A DNA stretch of 64,000 nucleotides from a virus (lineage: Duplodnaviria > Caudoviricetes): the IMG/VR virus record IMGVR_UViG_3300025735_000007, positions 42,296-106,295 of that record; one strand, written 5' to 3'. The position numbers and the translations under genes were made by a program. A model generated the notes under the pieces. That model saw only the letters and a program-made list of their open reading frames with translations, ran no database searches and had not been told where the DNA came from. Of the stretch, positions 4,801-55,335 are shown piece by piece (the first letter of the stretch is position 1; each line of letters begins with the position of its first letter).

Positions 4801-7357
4801 CACGAGCTATGTGCTGCCGGGCGTGAAGAAGGGCGACAACCTCGCGGTGCGCGTCCAGTCGTTTGACATCTGGGGCAAATACTCCGCCTATGACCAGGCG
4901 CCTACGGTCAACTACAAGGTCGTGGGCAACGTGACGAACCTGTCGTCGGCCGCCGTGTCGGGTGCGGATTTCTACTGGTCCGGGCGTGATTGCAAGCTCT
5001 TCTGGAACTACAACTCGACGACCGCATCCTTTGAATTCGGTTCCGAGCCAGAAGGCGCGCCGGGCACGCGCGACCCGCACTTCCAGGACTACGAGATCCG
5101 CATCTACGACCTGCAGCACAAGCTGTTGCGCACCGAACATACGACGGACAACAGCTACGTCTACACGTATGAGAAGAACTTCTCGGACGGACTGCACCGG
5201 CACGTCACCTTCGAAATTGCTGTGCGTGATATTTTCGGCAATATCGGCAAGCCGGCGGTGCTCGATGCCTATAACCCGCCGCCGACCGTGGTAACTGCGG
5301 CGACCAACGCGGCCTTCGATCGTATCCAGATCAACTTCACGCACAGCGACGACCCGGACTACGCCGGGGCGCGAGTTTTCCTGCGCTGGTCGGGCGACGT
5401 AGGGACGACGCCGACACTCGCCTACGACGGCCCGGACACAGCCGTGCTGATGTCGAATCTGATGTTCAATACGGACTATTACATCACGATCGTCCCGTAT
5501 GACGCGTTCGGGTTGGACGAGACTATCCCGAGCAACGAGATCCACGTCCACACGCCGTTTCTCGATGTGGAGGCCATCGCGGAGGGCGTGCTCAAGGACT
5601 CACAGCTGATTCCGGCGCTGCAAACCCGCATCGACCTCGTGGATGCGCCTGAGTCGATCATCGGCTCGGTGAATCAGCGCCTGGCTGACGCGAAGGCCAA
5701 GCTCTCGGGCGATCTGACAGCCGCAATCACACAAGAACAGCAGCTCCGGCAAGGCGCGGACAATAGCCTCGCCTCTCAGGTGACGACGCTCGTGTCGGCG
5801 AGCAACGCGAATACTGCGGCAATCACCTCCGAACAGACAGCACGCACGACCGCCGATCTGGCACTTGGCACACGCATCGACACAGTTGCGGCAAGCACGG
5901 GCAACAACACCGCGGCGATTCAGACGGAGATCACCGCACGCACGTCAGCCGACGCAGCGCTTGGCACCCGCATCGACACGGTGGCGGCTGCATACGGGAT
6001 GGACGCCACGAACCTGTGCGCGAATCCGGTGGCGGCCGGCGGGCTCACGACTGGATGGGACACACCGACGGCAGTCTTGGGCACTGCGCTTGACGTGCCT
6101 GCCGCGGCACCAGCGGCGTATGTGTTCCGCCAGAACATCCGCGATGCGCGCTATACGACGCGCGTCGTGTCTGTTACTGGCGGCCAGCAGCATTACCTCG
6201 AAATGCGCGCGGCCACGCCGGTCGCCGCGGTTCCGATCAGCATCGGCATGCGCTTCACGGCGCCCGGCAAGACGGACGTCTATGCCTGGGCGGCGACGCT
6301 TAACTCGACGTCGGTGTGGACGCGTCTCGCAGGCATGGTTACGGTCCCGGATGGCTACACGAGCGCCGAGCTGAGGGTGATGATCGACTTCGGCGCAGGC
6401 GTCACCAACGACAAGAACCGCTGGTATTACACGGACGTCGAGTGGCGCCCGGCAAGCCTGACGCAGCCGGCGATGGCCGCGATCAGCGTCGAGCAGACGG
6501 CGCGCGCGAGCGCGGACGGTGCGCTTTCAACCCGCATCGACAGCGTGAATGCGTCGCTCGGCACGACCAACGCAAACGTGCAGACCGAGATCAACGCGCG
6601 CGCGGCGGGTGACTCCGCAAACGCCAGTGCGATCTCGCAGCTGACCACCACGGTCAACGGCCACACGACCTCGATCCAGACCGCGCAAAGCTCGCTCAAT
6701 GGCCTGAGCGCGCAATACACGATCAAGATCGACAACAACGGCCATGTGTCGGGCTTTGGCCTCGCGTCGTATCCGGTCAACGGCGGCATCGTTAGCGAGT
6801 TCGCGGTGCGCGCCGATACGTTCTCGATCCAGTTGCCCGGCTATCCCGGTGTGCACCCGTTCACGGTGGGCGGCGTCGATGGTCAGGCGCGCGTGATCAT
6901 CAGCAGCGCGCTGATCGGCGACGCCGCCATCAGCACGGCCAAGATCGGCGACGCACAGGTCAACTCCGCAAAGATCGCCTACGCGGCGATCAACACCGCG
7001 CACATCGGCACCGCGCAGATCGACACACTGCGCATCGGCGCGAACGCCGTGTCGACGCTCGCCATCTGGGGTCTAGGCTCGGGCGGCACGGTCCAGTATC
7101 AGGCGGGCGGCGGCACGCTGATGGTGTTTGTCAGCGCGTTCATCGGTAGCCATTCCGGTTCTGACGGCGGCCAGGACTTCGCTGGCTCTGTCGTCGTCCA
7201 GATCAACGGACAGACCATCGTGACCATTTCGAATGGGTCACCCGCCTTCCAGACGAACTTCGGCATGACTGGGTTGGCTCCCGGGGTTTACAACGTGACC
7301 GCGAGCGGTAGCAACGCGCGAGGCATCACGGTCGCGGTTTTTGAATCGAAGCGATAA
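1775..7357 (+). CDS. Tail tip / host specificity protein (gpJ-like, with N-terminal gpI-like region fused)
   Basis: ~1860 aa; PVPYG motif, Fn3-like region, 25-aa TARTxAD.ALGTRID repeats, SAQYTIKIDNNGHVSGFGL (DUF1983-like) region. Confidence 0.9.
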   Translation: MDSMNTPKKRKAAPQFVRVRRITNPFEPMRDLRDEQWKWRKTYTLADYLPLGETADVVLSVNGQVVEREHFAKTKLQPTDFVVICPVPRGGDGGKGILRIIGMIVIAVASVYTGGAASAAYGPMAGAAAAAAVTVAGTLLLNAILPPAAATNSMNGGLASSSSYGVDGAKNTSSEMIPVPVPYGTFRTAGNVIGVHTEANGNDQILYMLINAGEGPIASITDIEINGRKINEFAEVSVQTRLGDPLQTPIDWFSSVITPYQKNQEIPKDGSYLTFATEGDVEAVRLDINFPSGLYAVDMKSGSVVENKIALEADYRIAGSNGSWTPFSSQPATYEMVQVQPVTSVGIGNLPDQRLAYVDGDSGIPWDGTQVITDLHITTPVGTVLDTTRDAIFAKFGSYIGQNIGSWPVGSGGIVATSVAIPPQPGALVIKEKLRSVVRRSYTSPQLPMGKYEVRLRRDANYIDYGANKAGVGLTNTEATSSSDCYVSDLNEIVYAGVGHNHTALLALRVKLDEQLSGIPTVTFVNGGRIITTFQRANGVITTKEAATNNAAWVQWDALTHWRYGAGIDGGRLDLSAWIDWAEYCGANGLTFDGVFDTTMNAWDASNYIARAGHAQLVPVGTRYSIIIERPSEPVMLFGMGNIVEGTFKQSWMSRTDRATEVDVTFFDKTDSYKQKTVKVTDSAAALEGRPQNPSAITAYGVVDIKRAYLEGALQMNINRYLTQTCEWDSPIEALACTHGDVVLVQHDQPAWGFSGRTESGSTASVVKLDKLVTMEAGKTYKLLLLGSTAVRNTGTIGSVSGTFIAVPTPPNVRIRRIRNAAGVETAVKTVVSDGVYAESTTGFAPGQRVTFYDTDVIEEHDVVVQPGETDAVTVTAPLSFVPDVFTNYLFGETTKVKKPFRITSITLGSTDMQRHLSALEYRAEVYDLSSYADVANTLTPPLLDPRQAAIGVVQNLSVYEETYVAGALILTDVRASWVQPLIGNYAGADVFLQINGGDFNKVGTVKVGTSYVLPGVKKGDNLAVRVQSFDIWGKYSAYDQAPTVNYKVVGNVTNLSSAAVSGADFYWSGRDCKLFWNYNSTTASFEFGSEPEGAPGTRDPHFQDYEIRIYDLQHKLLRTEHTTDNSYVYTYEKNFSDGLHRHVTFEIAVRDIFGNIGKPAVLDAYNPPPTVVTAATNAAFDRIQINFTHSDDPDYAGARVFLRWSGDVGTTPTLAYDGPDTAVLMSNLMFNTDYYITIVPYDAFGLDETIPSNEIHVHTPFLDVEAIAEGVLKDSQLIPALQTRIDLVDAPESIIGSVNQRLADAKAKLSGDLTAAITQEQQLRQGADNSLASQVTTLVSASNANTAAITSEQTARTTADLALGTRIDTVAASTGNNTAAIQTEITARTSADAALGTRIDTVAAAYGMDATNLCANPVAAGGLTTGWDTPTAVLGTALDVPAAAPAAYVFRQNIRDARYTTRVVSVTGGQQHYLEMRAATPVAAVPISIGMRFTAPGKTDVYAWAATLNSTSVWTRLAGMVTVPDGYTSAELRVMIDFGAGVTNDKNRWYYTDVEWRPASLTQPAMAAISVEQTARASADGALSTRIDSVNASLGTTNANVQTEINARAAGDSANASAISQLTTTVNGHTTSIQTAQSSLNGLSAQYTIKIDNNGHVSGFGLASYPVNGGIVSEFAVRADTFSIQLPGYPGVHPFTVGGVDGQARVIISSALIGDAAISTAKIGDAQVNSAKIAYAAINTAHIGTAQIDTLRIGANAVSTLAIWGLGSGGTVQYQAGGGTLMVFVSAFIGSHSGSDGGQDFAGSVVVQINGQTIVTISNGSPAFQTNFGMTGLAPGVYNVTASGSNARGITVAVFESKR

Positions 7358-17459: not shown

Positions 17460-17918
17460 ATGAGCACCCCCGAACAAGCCCGCGCCGAACAACTCGCTTA
17501 TGGCCGCAGCACGCTGCGCACGTCCAGCGAATACCGCGGCCGCGCCGATACCGCCACGCGCCCCTATGAACGCTCGTCCGGCACGCAGCGCGCGCCGCTG
17601 CGCGTCGTCGGCTCGAAGGGCCACGACGTCATTCTGAAGGCCATGCAGGAGAACGGCCAGCATGCGACGATCATCACCCTGGACGGCGAGAAGTTCGAAG
17701 GCGTGGTCACGGGCCGCGACAAGTTCACGATCACGCTGAAGACCAAGCATCCGGACGTTCTTCGCGCAGGGCGCGGCGAGACGATTCGCCGCGTGTTCTA
17801 CAAGAGCGCCATCGAGCAGTTCTGGGGCGAGGAAGCGCGTCGCGACATTCACGACACGACCCGCGACGAAGAAGGCATCGCTGATCTGAAGGCGCTCTCG
17901 AAAGCGGTGGTGAACTGA
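17460..17918 (+). CDS. Hfq-like (Sm/LSm fold) RNA-binding protein
   Basis: HDVILKAM...DGEKFEGVVTGRDKFTITL (Sm1) and RVFYKSAI (Sm2; compare YKHAI). Confidence 0.75.
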   Translation: MSTPEQARAEQLAYGRSTLRTSSEYRGRADTATRPYERSSGTQRAPLRVVGSKGHDVILKAMQENGQHATIITLDGEKFEGVVTGRDKFTITLKTKHPDVLRAGRGETIRRVFYKSAIEQFWGEEARRDIHDTTRDEEGIADLKALSKAVVN

Positions 17919-53423: not shown

Positions 53424-53852
53424 ATGAAAAAGTTTTGGGCAATCGTCGCTATCGCCGCAGGTCTTTTCGGGGTTGGTCTGATCATCAACGGCTGCACGCA
53501 TAACGACTATGTGCAGCCGCCTATGGCCGCTCCTGTGCCTGCCGCGGTGGTTGCGCAAGCGCCGGGCGCCGCACCTGTTGTCGGATACGCGCCTCCGCCG
53601 GTCATCGTGCAGGCCGCGCCGACGCATGACGGCTTTTTCACCGGCATGCTGATGGGACACCTCATGAGCGGCGGCGGCGGTTATCACGCACCTGTCCAGC
53701 ACAACACCACGATCGTTCAGCAGTCGGTGACCCGCAACACGATCGTGCGGCCCGCCGTCGCAGCGCCTCGCGCCAATACCTACGTCTATCGCCCAACGGT
53801 GCGCTCGAGTGGATCGAGCAAGTCGGTCTACGGGTCGTTTCGTCGCCGGTAG
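53424..53852 (+). CDS. Exported/lipoprotein-like protein
   Basis: Signal peptide ending INGC; GFFTGMLMGHLM motif; Ser/Arg-rich tail. Confidence 0.7.
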   Translation: MKKFWAIVAIAAGLFGVGLIINGCTHNDYVQPPMAAPVPAAVVAQAPGAAPVVGYAPPPVIVQAAPTHDGFFTGMLMGHLMSGGGGYHAPVQHNTTIVQQSVTRNTIVRPAVAAPRANTYVYRPTVRSSGSSKSVYGSFRRR

Positions 53853-53907
53853 TCGGGCCAAGGGTCTGAATTGAGAATGGTGGTCGGGCGCAATGCCCGG
53901 CCCAATC

Positions 53908-54123
53908 GAGAAGTCATTGAAACCGCTTTGTGAACCAACCCTAGTAGCGCGTCTGACGGCCGGCAGACAAAAGCAAACGGCAGTAGCGAGACGAGCCTAT
54001 CAAGCGCGCACGGTGAACACGGAGTAGCAGGGCCTCCGCTCTCCCGTCCGGTCTTTGAGCCGGAGTAGCGTATATGCGCGACGGCGCCCGAGTCGCATCG
54101 GGCAGCGGCCTCAATGACGTCTT
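53908..54123 (+). ncRNA. Candidate structured RNA with four AGUAGC motifs
   Basis: Closing stem GTCATTGA-aa-CCGCT / AGCGG-cc-TCAATGAC; internal hairpins; AGTAGC at 53943, 53982, 54023, 54064. Confidence 0.5.
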
Positions 54124-54142
54124 TCAACGAGGAGAAACCAGC

Positions 54143-54337
54143 ATGGCTAAGGCACGCATCACGATCTCGTTCGAATACGAGATCGTGGCACAACACTACG
54201 AGCCTCACATGACGCCGGAGCAGATGGTGGCGCTCGACGTCGCCAACTACAACGAAGACCCGCTCGCGGTCCTCGAAGTGCTCGCCGCGACCGAGTTTGA
54301 GGTCAGCGGCGTGCCGGTCACCGACAACCCGCTTTAA
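54143..54337 (+). CDS. Hypothetical protein
   Basis: GAGGAG RBS. Confidence 0.65.
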   Translation: MAKARITISFEYEIVAQHYEPHMTPEQMVALDVANYNEDPLAVLEVLAATEFEVSGVPVTDNPL

Positions 54338-54351
54338 CAGGAGCAAAACCC

Positions 54352-55335
54352 ATGATCGAACTGCAAGGAAAAGGCTGCACCGTCAAGGTCATCGCCGATA
54401 GCGTCGCGCACAGCGTGAACGGCAAGCGTATCACCACGCTGCAACTGCGCTACTGGCGCGCGATCCACGCCGAGTTCATGACGCACCGCGTGCTGAGCCG
54501 CAACGCCAGCTCGTCGCGCGCCATACCGGTCGCAAAGATGCTGGAGCAGGTGCGCAATGATCCGGCGGGGCCGATCCACTGGGGAGCCAATCAACCCGGC
54601 ATGCAGGCTCATGCTGAATGTGACGCGCCGATTGAACTGGTGGACTACGAGCTCATGGACGAGCCGACCGATTCAGTGCACGTCGAAACGCTGAATCAAT
54701 TCTCGCGCGAGACAGCGTGGAAAGAAGCGGCGACTCGCGCTGCCGAGGTCGCCGAAGCCTTCTCGAAGGCGGGCTACCACAAGCAGGTCGTCAACCGGCT
54801 GCTGGAGCCGTTCCAATACATCAGCGTGATCTGCACCGCGACGGAGTGGGAGAACTTCTTCGCGCTGCGCGTGCACCCGGATGCGCAACCCGAGATTCAG
54901 GATCTTGCAGCCACGATGCAAAAGGCGATGGCGAAGTCGAAGCCCGTGGTTCGCACCGGATCGTGGGGCGACCCCGAAACATGGCACTTGCCCAACGTGC
55001 TTGACCACGAACGCAAGCTCTATCGTCTGGACGTGCTGCAAGCGCTCTCGACGGCCCGCAATGCCCGCGTGAGCTATCTGACTCATGACGGGGCAGAACC
55101 GAGCCCTGACAAGGATCTGGAGCTCTACGAGCGCCTGGTGGGTGCCGAGCCACTGCACGCGAGCCCGACCGAGCACATCGCCGCGCCGCTCTCGCAGGGC
55201 CACCGCACCGGCGGCCAGAAAAACTTCGTCGGTTGGCACCAATACCGTTCCGACGTCGAGGTGCGCATTGAGCGCGCGAAAAAGCTCGCTGCCGAAACGG
55301 GCGGCAGCAAACGCTTCGCGATTGCCTCACTATAA
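54352..55335 (+). CDS. thyX: ThyX-like flavin-dependent thymidylate synthase
   Basis: HAEFMTHRVLSRNASSSRAIP (RHRx7S-like), HKQ.VNRLLEPF, AQPEI, HASPTEH. Confidence 0.82.
   Translation: MIELQGKGCTVKVIADSVAHSVNGKRITTLQLRYWRAIHAEFMTHRVLSRNASSSRAIPVAKMLEQVRNDPAGPIHWGANQPGMQAHAECDAPIELVDYELMDEPTDSVHVETLNQFSRETAWKEAATRAAEVAEAFSKAGYHKQVVNRLLEPFQYISVICTATEWENFFALRVHPDAQPEIQDLAATMQKAMAKSKPVVRTGSWGDPETWHLPNVLDHERKLYRLDVLQALSTARNARVSYLTHDGAEPSPDKDLELYERLVGAEPLHASPTEHIAAPLSQGHRTGGQKNFVGWHQYRSDVEVRIERAKKLAAETGGSKRFAIASL

What the first reader, a model, noticed from the sequence alone, without database searches (positions are those of the whole stretch)
53908..54123. Candidate novel structured RNA: long closing stem enclosing four AGUAGC motifs at ~40-nt period
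Seen: in a ~290-bp gap of a tightly packed operon, GTCATTGA-aa-CCGCT (53913-53927) pairs with AGCGG-cc-TCAATGAC (54104-54118). Inside, AGTAGC recurs at 53943, 53982, 54023 and 54064 (spacing 39, 41, 41), with AGCGGC 40 nt further on. The units are otherwise different, and several form hairpins (GTCTG/CAGAC; ACGGAG.AGC/GCTCT.CCGT; CCGG/CCGG; GCCCGA/TCGGGC). Inference: an RNA excised at the stem (RNase III-like) that displays repeated sites as a protein sponge, antitoxin or anti-defence decoy, or a mini-array processed into ~40-nt small RNAs. The phage Hfq-like protein is a possible partner. I cannot match it to a known family.
Basis: partly seen in the sequence, partly recalled or inferred. Interest (0 to 1): 0.72.

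Follow-up and report, generated by a model that had tools for sequence, protein, structure and literature searches.

The report
New cloverleaf-like phage RNA family
The 290-bp gap holds a real, conserved, folded non-coding RNA found in a small group of Burkholderia-type temperate phages; it matches no known RNA family, its function is unknown, and only two of the four AGUAGC "repeats" are part of the family's core.

Summary
The closing stem and four AGTAGC copies lie at the stated coordinates, and the clustering is far beyond chance.

The region is one of 11 distinct homologous elements of about 170-215 nt. All are single-copy and lie between the ribonucleotide reductase and thyX-like genes of roughly 105-116 kb temperate phages. 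Related thyX-like proteins are named from Burkholderia, Cupriavidus and Ralstonia.

The helices covary strongly: 37 of 59 pairs show double changes, 93% of cells are paired, and 0 of 500 shuffles reach this. G.U pairs outnumber A.C pairs 35 to 3, so the folded molecule is the sense-strand RNA.

The fold is a gap-free four-way junction:
- P1, the closing stem.
- Arm A, carrying AGUAGC #1 and #2 on opposite strands, each facing invariant AA.
- Arm B, a composite arm.
- HP4, a short T-arm-like hairpin.

Copies #3 and #4, and therefore the 40-nt period, occur in only two of the 11 members. This is not a repeat array.

There is no Rfam match, no tRNA call and no conserved reading frame. The element has been lost or reduced repeatedly in close relatives. 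In one relative it sits 5 nt upstream of a tRNA.

My best guess, at about 40%, is a stable RNA excised from the operon transcript that binds a protein. A cis-acting leader is the main rival.

The parts
53853..54142 (+). Intergenic gap between the 142-aa ORF (stop at 53852) and the 64-aa ORF (start at 54143)
   Evidence: no frame is open across the homologues
53882..53902 (+). Upstream GC-rich hairpin (GGTCGGGC-gcaat-GCCCGGCC), preceded by the box TCTGAATTGAGAAT (53865-53878). It is conserved in the window-type clade even where the element is missing. It is not part of the RNA family core.
53909..53927 (+). P1, 5' strand of the closing stem: lower part AGA.GUCAUUGA, upper part ACCGCU
   Evidence: covaries (L334 AAGG..CCAG/CUGG..CCUU; L339 GCGCAG/CUGCGU)
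53928..53994 (+). Arm A: P2 (53928-31 / 53991-94), 2-bp helices P2a, P2b and P2c, and terminal hairpin HP1 (53951-55 / 53964-68). It holds AGUAGC #1 and #2.
   Evidence: P2 changes UUGU/ACGA to CCGC/GCGG in L249 and UCGA/UCGA in L334; all 9 HP1 pairs show double changes
53943..53948 (+). AGUAGC #1: AGUA in an internal loop facing AAAC (53975-78), with GC in the 2-bp helix P2c. AGUA is kept in 9 of 11 members; UA is invariant.
53982..53987 (+). AGUAGC #2: AGUA in an internal loop facing CAA (53936-38, AA invariant), with GC in the 2-bp helix P2a. The hexamer is kept in 10 of 11 members.
53995..54085 (+). Arm B: P3 (53995-97 / 54083-85), P4 (54005-09 / 54076-80), P5 (54011-15 / 54043-46), HP3a (54020-24 / 54034-38) and the optional HP3b (54047-52 / 54059-64). 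CUCU at 54039-42 is invariant and unpaired.
54023..54028 (+). AGUAGC #3, spanning the 3' end of the HP3a 5' strand and its loop. Present only in the window and L333. Seven other members have CGUAG as the stem strand here, which is not the same position.
54064..54069 (+). AGUAGC #4, in the junction strand between HP3b and the 3' strand of P4. Present only in the window and L333. The segment is absent from L322, L325, L329, L334 and L339.
54086..54103 (+). HP4: GCCCGA-gucgca-UCGGGC, abutting both P3 and the P1 3' strand with no spacer. The loop keeps UC. In L249, L324 and L339 it is a 5-bp stem with a 7-nt loop AUC(G/A)UUC.
   Evidence: (5 of 6 pairs with double changes)
54104..54122 (+). P1, 3' strand of the closing stem
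54130..54145 (+). Shine-Dalgarno AGGAGA (54130-35) and the ATG of the 64-aa ORF (54143)
   Evidence: the same spacing is seen in homologues before p64 or the thyX-like gene

Best explanation
Shown: window 53909-54122 (+) is one member of a previously undescribed family of structured RNAs. Members are about 170-215 nt, transcribed in the sense direction as part of the RNR to thyX-like nucleotide-metabolism operon, and found in a clade of roughly 105-116 kb temperate phages of Burkholderia-like hosts.

The RNA folds into a cloverleaf-like four-way junction with no unpaired junction nucleotides. P1 is the closing stem. Arm A is long and irregular, and it carries AGUAGC #1 and #2 on opposite strands, each AGUA facing an invariant AA. 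Arm B is composite (P3, P4, P5, HP3a, with or without HP3b). HP4 is short and stacked next to P1.

Inferred: the two conserved AGUA/NAA loops resemble bulged-G (loop E / sarcin-ricin-like) modules, which are typical protein- or RNA-docking platforms. That would explain why the hexamer recurs.

Inferred mechanism, about 40% likely: the element is cut out of the polycistronic transcript and acts as a stable accessory ribonucleoprotein or decoy RNA. In this phage the cut would be at the ~19-position P1 duplex, by an RNase III-type enzyme. In relative L334 it would be made by RNase P at the tRNA that starts 5 nt downstream. The extra AGUAGC copies #3 and #4 in this phage and in L333 would add binding sites. 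The RNA is dispensable, having been lost or truncated several times.
For: Homologues:
- Eleven distinct members were found: window, L333, L327, L090, L249, L324, L322, L325, L329, L334 and L339.
- Covariance-model scores are 191-219 bits for nine members (eight plus the window's own copy) and 55-56 bits for the two divergent members not used to build the model.

Structure:
- RNAalifold finds 20 of 59 pairs with compensatory changes.
- On the 11-sequence alignment, 93.3% of cells are paired and 37 of 59 pairs show double changes. 0 of 500 shuffles reach this, and slid controls give 6-9 pairs.
- HP3b has five different stem sequences, all paired.

Strand:
- G.U pairs number 35 against 3 A.C.
- Minus-strand model scores are at most 27 bits.

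Non-coding: no frame is open across members.

Not a known family: Rfam gives nothing at gathering thresholds and nothing relevant at E <= 10. ARAGORN gives no call.

Copy number and context:
- There is a single copy per genome.
- The position between RNR and the thyX-like gene is conserved, but the immediate downstream neighbour varies: p64, thyX-like, tRNA-Val or a 63-aa membrane ORF. This argues against a leader dedicated to one gene.
- tRNA-Val starts 5 nt after the element in L334, whereas the seven complete genomes checked have no tRNA at all.

Conserved unpaired bases include the UA of AGUA #1, AGU of #2 and the facing AA.
Against: - No transcript data exist. The ends, the processing and the stability of the RNA are all inferred.
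- The element lies 20-25 nt before a ribosome-binding site in 10 of 11 members. The invariant unpaired CUCU(C) is complementary to GGAG(A), so cis control of translation is a live alternative.
- P1 is only 7 bp in L339, so RNase III processing cannot be general.
- In the proposed bulged-G modules, the position that is canonically G is G in only 3-4 of 11 members.
- No partner protein was identified. The Hfq-like gene does not co-vary with the element.
- The only co-occurring ORF (235 aa, phrog_7111) has unknown function, and that association could be due to relatedness.
- The pair counts come from an alignment fitted to the model, and several members are close relatives.
Confidence: 0.4

Rival explanations
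1. It is a cis-acting leader or intergenic regulator. The fold would be a ligand- or protein-binding domain (riboswitch-like or an autoregulatory operator) that sets translation or read-through of the downstream thyX-like nucleotide-modification genes, for example by freeing or masking the RBS through the invariant CUCUC, or by stabilising P1 ahead of the UCUUU tract.
For: - The element always lies inside the same operon, in the sense orientation.
- P1 ends 10-12 nt before the SD in the window-type members.
- The invariant unpaired CUCU (54039-42) is complementary to the SD GGAG(A).
- P1 is followed by UCUUU(C/U) in the window-type clade.
- Highly conserved junction and loop bases with covarying helices are typical of aptamers.
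Against: - The downstream gene differs among members (p64, thyX-like, a membrane ORF), and in L334 it is a tRNA rather than an RBS, yet CUCUC is kept.
- There is no conserved terminator or anti-terminator alternative, and no U tract in L334 or L339.
- The element starts 0-10 nt after the upstream stop codon in L334 and L339, in mid-operon and far from any promoter.
- Close relatives with the same genes lack it entirely.
Confidence: 0.3
2. It is a self-cleaving ribozyme or dedicated processing module that separates the upstream and downstream cistrons.
For: - It has a complex fold with invariant internal-loop bases.
- Two loop-bearing arms sit side by side on a perfect four-way junction, as in the natural hairpin ribozyme (recalled from memory, not tested here).
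- It is intercistronic in phage operons, where small ribozymes are often found.
Against: - There is no match to any Rfam ribozyme model.
- It is larger than most self-cleavers.
- No cleavage site can be named.
- Nothing in the data bears on catalysis.
Confidence: 0.07
3. It is a repeat array: four AGUAGC-marked ~40-nt units processed into small RNAs, or acting as a ToxI-like, CRISPR-like or Csr-like multi-site sponge.
For: There are four exact AGTAGC copies at 39, 41 and 41 nt in the window, and again in L333. The clustering is highly non-random.
Against: - The units share no similarity beyond 6-9 nt.
- Copies #3 and #4 are absent from 9 of 11 members, and five members lack the segment holding #4.
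- Copies #1 and #2 lie on opposite strands of one helix.
- The genome has no ToxN gene.
- There are no GGA loops.
- Hfq-like gene presence is unrelated to presence of the element.
Confidence: 0.04
4. It is a DNA-level element (origin, iterons, recombination site) or a small mobile insertion (MITE-like) that landed in the loop of an older hairpin.
For: - Relatives carry a plain hairpin with the same lower stem and no interior (L004, L084/L087, L088).
- The 40-41 bp spacing is close to four helical turns.
Against: - G.U outnumbers A.C 35 to 3, which shows selection on one RNA strand.
- There is a single copy per genome, and none was found in other contexts among about 330 loci or in three pattern scans of IMG/VR.
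- The interior diverges in step with the flanking genes and is present across the clade, which fits ancestry with several losses better than insertion.
Confidence: 0.04

Closest known systems
tRNA and tRNA-like or Y-RNA-like (YrlA) modules
   Same: - It has a four-helix cloverleaf closed by the 5' and 3' ends.
- A short hairpin (HP4) abuts the 3' strand of the closing stem with no spacer, as the T arm abuts the acceptor stem.
- In L249, L324 and L339, HP4 is a 5-bp stem with a 7-nt loop, a closing G-C pair and xUCRxxx.
- In L339, P1 is 7 bp and is followed by U-CCA.
- In L334 a real tRNA-Val follows after 5 nt.
   Different: - ARAGORN and the Rfam tRNA, tmRNA and Y-RNA models give no match.
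- There are no junction spacers, no anticodon-arm equivalent and no D-loop GG / T-loop pairing geometry.
- The arms are far longer than in tRNA.
- The loop has A at position 54 and U at 58 instead of U and A.
- The phage genome has no Ro/TROVE gene.
Bulged-G (loop E / sarcin-ricin) RNA modules, consensus AGUA facing GAA
   Same: Both conserved hexamers place AGUA in an internal loop, next to a G-C pair, opposite xAA. The two A's are invariant or nearly so. Where x is G (3-4 of 11 members) the match to the consensus is exact.
   Different: The position canonically occupied by G is A or C in most members. The flanking helices are only 2 bp. No 3-D evidence is available. This is a structural module, not an RNA family or a function.
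Phage intercistronic RNase III processing hairpins (T7 R sites) and T4 stable RNAs C/D co-transcribed with tRNAs
   Same: It has a long imperfect duplex between cistrons of a phage operon. Relatives keep the bare hairpin at the same place. One member is linked to a tRNA, so it could mature through the tRNA-processing route.
   Different: Those hairpins have no elaborate conserved interior. There is no sequence relationship. Processing here is untested. P1 is too short for RNase III in L339.
Multi-site sponge or array RNAs (CsrB/RsmZ, ToxI type III antitoxin, CRISPR mini-arrays)
   Same: A short motif recurs at a regular spacing within one transcript in this phage.
   Different: The repeats are 6 nt only, the units are non-homologous, only two copies are conserved in the family, and there is no cognate protein gene (ToxN, Cas). 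There are no GGA loops.

Membership tests
Any Rfam 15 family | Covariance-model score at or above the family's gathering threshold | tested here: not met
   The whole window gave 0 hits. The region at E <= 10 gave only chance-level hits to SorX, sX14 and Tymo_tRNA-like, outside or across the element. Eight homologous loci gave nothing at the element.
tRNA / tmRNA | Cloverleaf with canonical arm lengths, detectable by ARAGORN | tested here: not met
   ARAGORN made no call in the window or in eight element-bearing loci. The only call is the separate tRNA-Val next to the element in L334.
Y RNA / YrlA | Ro/Rsr (TROVE) partner gene, and a match to the Y-RNA models | tested here: not met
   PF05731 is absent from the 106-kb phage genome and there is no Rfam hit. 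A host-encoded Rsr was not testable.
Type III antitoxin (ToxI-like) array | Tandem near-identical ~34-40-nt repeats followed by a ToxN/AbiQ-type endoribonuclease gene | tested here: not met
   The units share only 6-9 nt. No ToxN was found in the genome. The downstream ORFs have no Pfam or PHROG match to such toxins.
CRISPR mini-array / solitary repeat | Direct repeats of 20 nt or more separated by unique spacers | tested here: not met
   The longest internal direct repeat is 9 nt, CGGAGTAGC.
Riboswitch (generic) | Conserved aptamer coupled to an expression platform, upstream of functionally related genes | tested here: inconclusive
   The fold is conserved and the operon is the same. However, the immediate downstream feature varies (p64, thyX-like, tRNA, membrane ORF), and there is no conserved terminator or anti-terminator. 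The ligand is not testable here.
Bulged-G / loop E module | AGUA opposite GAA in an internal loop flanked by Watson-Crick pairs | tested here: inconclusive
   AGUA and the facing AA are conserved in both loops. The G is present in 3-4 of 11 members. The 3-D geometry is not testable with these tools.
New family defined here | P1, arm A, arm B and HP4 around a gap-free four-way junction, with covariation in every major helix | tested here: met
   two members not used to build the model were recovered at E about 1e-11.

The most novel reading that the evidence does not exclude
The element is a new functional class of phage RNA. One possibility is a tRNA-mimicking decoy or RNP scaffold, suggested by the acceptor/T-arm-like P1-HP4 stack, the U-CCA after a 7-bp P1 in L339, and the tRNA linkage in L334. 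Such an RNA would be excised from the nucleotide-modification operon to engage a host tRNA-directed enzyme or defence. The other possibility is a new ribozyme or riboswitch class tied to thymidine-modification genes.
Probability: 0.2. Interest if true: 0.8.

Novelty: categorically new. Interest (0 to 1): 0.6.

Why it matters
Complex, well-covarying RNAs of about 200 nt with invariant loop bases usually have sophisticated functions, such as ribozymes, riboswitches or RNP cores. Very few are known from temperate phages of Burkholderia-like hosts.

This one has several notable properties:
- It sits in an operon that probably supplies or modifies thymidine nucleotides.
- It is dispensable and patchily distributed, as counter-defence and accessory functions often are.
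- It offers natural variants for experiments: full-length, arm-deleted, one-hairpin remnant and bare stem.

The work also corrects an attractive but misleading reading. The 40-nt 'repeat array' is a lineage-specific elaboration of a cloverleaf-like fold. The novelty label applies to the RNA family, which matches none of the 4227 Rfam models. Whether its mechanism is new remains unknown.

Tried and rejected
Similarity and family searches:
- Nucleotide similarity to cultured phages: none. The nearest cultured nrdB is 38% identical, from Pseudomonas phage hairong/nickie.
- Rfam at gathering thresholds and at permissive E-values, on the window and on eight homologous loci: nothing.

Repeat-based ideas:
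- AGTAGC or GTAGC arrays elsewhere in this genome or in five relatives: none above the control.
- REP/RAYT-like 'GTAG + hairpin' repeats or a MITE insertion: rejected. The element is single-copy, the units are non-homologous, and there are no copies at other loci.

Signals and coding:
- Promoter and terminator scan of the gap: no sigma-70-like promoter and no + strand terminator.
- The upstream TCTGAATTGAGAAT box is not repeated in the window.
- Coding potential: no frame is conserved.

Partner proteins:
- Hfq-like protein: present in all 10 relatives tested, regardless of the element.
- Ro/TROVE and ToxN: absent.
- Co-occurrence screen of all G000 ORFs against six complete relatives, extended to five more records: only one ORF fits (G000 6616-7320, 235 aa, phrog_7111). 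It has no Pfam or PDB match and gave a poor AlphaFold model with pLDDT 42. This remains a weak lead.

Search for more members:
- Three pattern scans of IMG/VR and two covariance models run over about 330 loci added only L334 and L339.
- Searching Burkholderia genomes with the model was not possible, because the loci are not in the held genome set.

Literature: searches for AGUAGC + phage and for structured RNA + thyX found nothing relevant.

Full report
**1. The observation**

The window is positions 42296-106295 of a 106-kb, 61% GC virus record. The finding lies in the 290-bp gap 53853-54142. Upstream is a 142-aa ORF; downstream is a 64-aa ORF (p64, ATG at 54143, SD AGGAGA at 54130). The surrounding + strand cluster reads nrdA, nrdB, p142, gap, p64, thyX-like, mazG-like, P-loop kinase.

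AGTAGC is rare: 16 hits on both strands of the window, and no other ~40-nt-spaced pair in the genome. The cluster is therefore not chance.

Folding the gap alone gives an unremarkable energy (z = -1.2 on the + strand, -0.7 on the - strand). Rfam and ARAGORN find nothing.

**2. Homologues**

No cultured phage is close. I searched with the thyX-like and nrdB proteins in IMG/VR, JGI metagenomes, GTDB genomes and the large protein/contig collection.

These searches gave a graded series at the same locus:
- Full-length homologues of the interior: L090, L249, L324, L327 and L333.
- Shorter forms lacking one hairpin and the segment that holds motif #4: L322 (= L323), L325 (= L326) and L329.
- A 66-nt remnant with one AGTAGC and one hairpin: L005, L255 and L332. 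L332 lies on a Burkholderia sp. genome contig.
- A bare hairpin that keeps only the lower closing stem: L004, L084/L087 and L088.
- No hairpin at all: L330, L331, L250, L257, L334-type neighbours and L336.

A covariance model built from nine sequences recovered two divergent members that were not used to build it:
- L334, at 55 bits.
- L339, which is G006:87754-87922, at 56 bits.

Both lie between an RNR gene and a thyX-like gene but have different immediate neighbours. In L339 the order is RuvC, RNR, a 216-aa ORF, the element, a 63-aa membrane ORF, a lipoprotein, thyX-like. In L334 the element starts directly after the upstream stop codon and ends 5 nt before a tRNA-Val(AAC) gene. None of seven complete genomes of the clade has any tRNA.

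Each genome holds one copy. No further member turned up in about 240 thyX-neighbour loci or in the remaining pattern scans.

Names attached to related thyX-like proteins point to Burkholderia, Cupriavidus and Ralstonia hosts.

**3. Structure**

RNAalifold on the nine-sequence MAFFT alignment predicts 59 pairs, 20 with compensatory changes.

On the 11-sequence model-guided alignment:
- 93.3% of cells are paired.
- 37 of 59 pairs have changes on both sides.
- No shuffle out of 500 reaches any measure.
- Sliding the partners by 1-3 columns drops the count to 6-9 pairs and 31-40% pairing.

The caveats are that the alignment is fitted to the model and that several members are close relatives.

Every major helix covaries. 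Examples read directly from the sequences:
- P1 upper: CCGCU/AGCGG, against CCAG/CUGG (L334) and GCGCAG/CUGCGU (L339).
- P2: UUGU/ACGA, against CCGC/GCGG (L249) and UCGA/UCGA (L334).
- HP1: GUCUG/CAGAC, against CGUGGUG/CGCCACG and others.
- P3: GCC/GGC, against GGC/GCC.
- P4: CGCGC/GCGCG, against CGCAG/CUGCG.
- HP3a: CGUAG/CUACG, CGGAG/CUCCG, CGUAU/AUACG and CGGAC/GUCCG.
- HP3b: five different stems.
- HP4: GCCCGA/UCGGGC, ACCGGU/ACCGGU, GCCGG/CCGGC and GUCGG/CCGAC.

G.U pairs outnumber A.C pairs 35 to 3. Minus-strand model scores are at most 27 bits, against 190-219 bits on the + strand. The folded molecule is therefore the sense RNA. No reading frame is open across members.

The four helices P1, P2, P3 and HP4 meet without a single unpaired nucleotide (structure line). 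This is a perfect four-way junction with a cloverleaf outline.

**4. What the AGUAGC copies are**

Copies #1 and #2 are family features. The hexamer of #1 is AGUAG(C/U) in 9 of 11 members, and #2 is AGUAGC in 10 of 11.

In the consensus fold they lie on opposite strands of arm A. In each case AGUA is unpaired, the following GC forms a 2-bp helix, and the facing strand reads xAA with the two A's invariant or nearly so.

From established knowledge of RNA modules, AGUA opposite GAA is the bulged-G (loop E / sarcin-ricin) motif. The x is G in only 3-4 of 11 members, so this is an inference rather than a demonstration. It would explain the conservation of the hexamer, and it suggests a docking surface for a protein or for arm B.

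Copies #3 and #4 exist only in the window and L333:
- #3 arises where the HP3a stem reads CGGAG followed by UAGC. Seven other members have CGUAG as the stem strand, two positions away.
- #4 lies in a segment that five members lack.

Arm B is nearly identical between the window and L333, although their thyX-like proteins are only 62% identical. The four-copy version is therefore a maintained variant, not noise. It is not, however, the family's defining feature, and the 40-nt period is a by-product of arm sizes.

**5. Function**

The RNA sits mid-operon and is co-transcribed with its neighbours. It ends 20-25 nt before a start codon in 10 of 11 members, and 5 nt before a tRNA in the eleventh.

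Its immediate neighbours vary, it has been lost or reduced several times among close relatives, and the bare P1 hairpin survives the loss of the interior in some lineages. I weigh two readings.

(a) A stand-alone stable RNA released from the transcript, at about 40%. Release would be by RNase III at the 19-position P1 duplex here, or by RNase P next to the tRNA in L334. The RNA would act as an accessory protein-binding or decoy RNA. Supporting points:
- The downstream partners vary.
- One member is linked to a tRNA.
- The P1-HP4 stack is tRNA-like.
- The element is dispensable.

(b) A cis-acting regulator of the downstream thyX-like operon, at about 30%. Supporting points:
- The spacing to the RBS is constant.
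- The invariant CUCU(C) is complementary to GGAG(A).
- A UCUUU tract follows P1 in the window-type clade.

A ribozyme, a repeat array and a DNA-level or mobile element are minor alternatives. That the region is a genuine, selected RNA structure I put at about 0.9.

**6. Partner search**

- The Hfq-like gene (window 17460-17918; PF17209 at 27 bits) is present in all ten relatives tested, whether or not they have the element.
- TROVE and ToxN are absent.
- An all-ORF co-occurrence screen found one ORF present in the three complete element-bearing genomes and in none of eight records without a full element: G000 6616-7320, 235 aa, phrog_7111. It has no Pfam or PDB match and no usable model. With so few and related genomes, this is only a lead.

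**7. Comparison and novelty**

The element fails the membership tests for every Rfam family and for tRNA, Y RNA, ToxI-type arrays and CRISPR arrays.

It resembles tRNA-like RNAs in outline, and phage RNase III hairpins in placement. It may contain loop E-type modules.

It is a new RNA family of unknown function, known so far from 11 sequences in one phage clade.

Noticed in passing
window 53865-53902: The box TCTGAATTGAGAAT plus a GC-rich hairpin (GGTCGGGC-gcaat-GCCCGGCC) directly after the p142 stop codon is conserved in the window-type clade, even in relatives that lack the RNA element (L004, L330, L331-like). There is no U tract, and the box occurs nowhere else in the window.
   Followed up: partly
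window 54143-54337: The 64-aa ORF p64 has no Pfam or PHROG match and is patchily present. It is found in L005, L090, L327, L329, L331, L089 and L018, but is absent in L004, L249, L322, L324, L325 and L333. Its presence is independent of the RNA element.
   Followed up: partly
window 54352-55335; L088 2475-; L257 3588-4290: The 327-aa thyX-like protein matches Pfam Thy1 only weakly (38 bits, partial) but matches PHROG 85 strongly. In some relatives (L088/L254, L257) a classical ThyX occupies the slot instead. Together with the MazG-like protein, a P-loop kinase and Nmad5 downstream, this may be a thymidine-modification module rather than plain dTMP synthesis.
   Followed up: partly
L334 417-493: tRNA-Val(AAC) with an encoded CCA lies 5 nt after the divergent copy of the element. 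None of seven complete genomes of the clade has any tRNA gene.
   Followed up: partly
L339 1416-1589: In this divergent member P1 is exactly 7 bp, HP4 is a 5-bp stem with a 7-nt loop, and the 3' strand of P1 is followed by U-CCA. This has the dimensions of a tRNA acceptor/T-arm minihelix. It could be coincidence.
   Followed up: no
G000:C1:6616-7320 (outside the window; L421 1117-1821): A 235-aa ORF (phrog_7111, unknown function) is the only ORF present in all three complete element-bearing genomes and in none of eight records without a full element.
   Followed up: partly
window 17460-17918: An Hfq-like ORF (PF17209, 27.3 bits, just above the cut-off) is conserved in all ten relatives tested at 34-71% identity.
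   Followed up: partly
L253 and L254 (IMGVR_UViG_3300046694_000296, 215,656 bp): This record holds two different versions of the nrdB to thyX module and two Hfq-like genes. It is probably two related ~107-kb genomes joined in one contig.
   Followed up: no
L249 3515-3590; L250 3510-3610; L332 1060-1160: Directly after nrdB, relatives carry a sigma-70-like promoter (TTGTCG/TTAAGT, about 17 nt, TATAAT/TATACT) followed by a GC hairpin, ahead of the small secreted or lipoprotein-like ORF. The transcription unit that contains the element may therefore start there.
   Followed up: no
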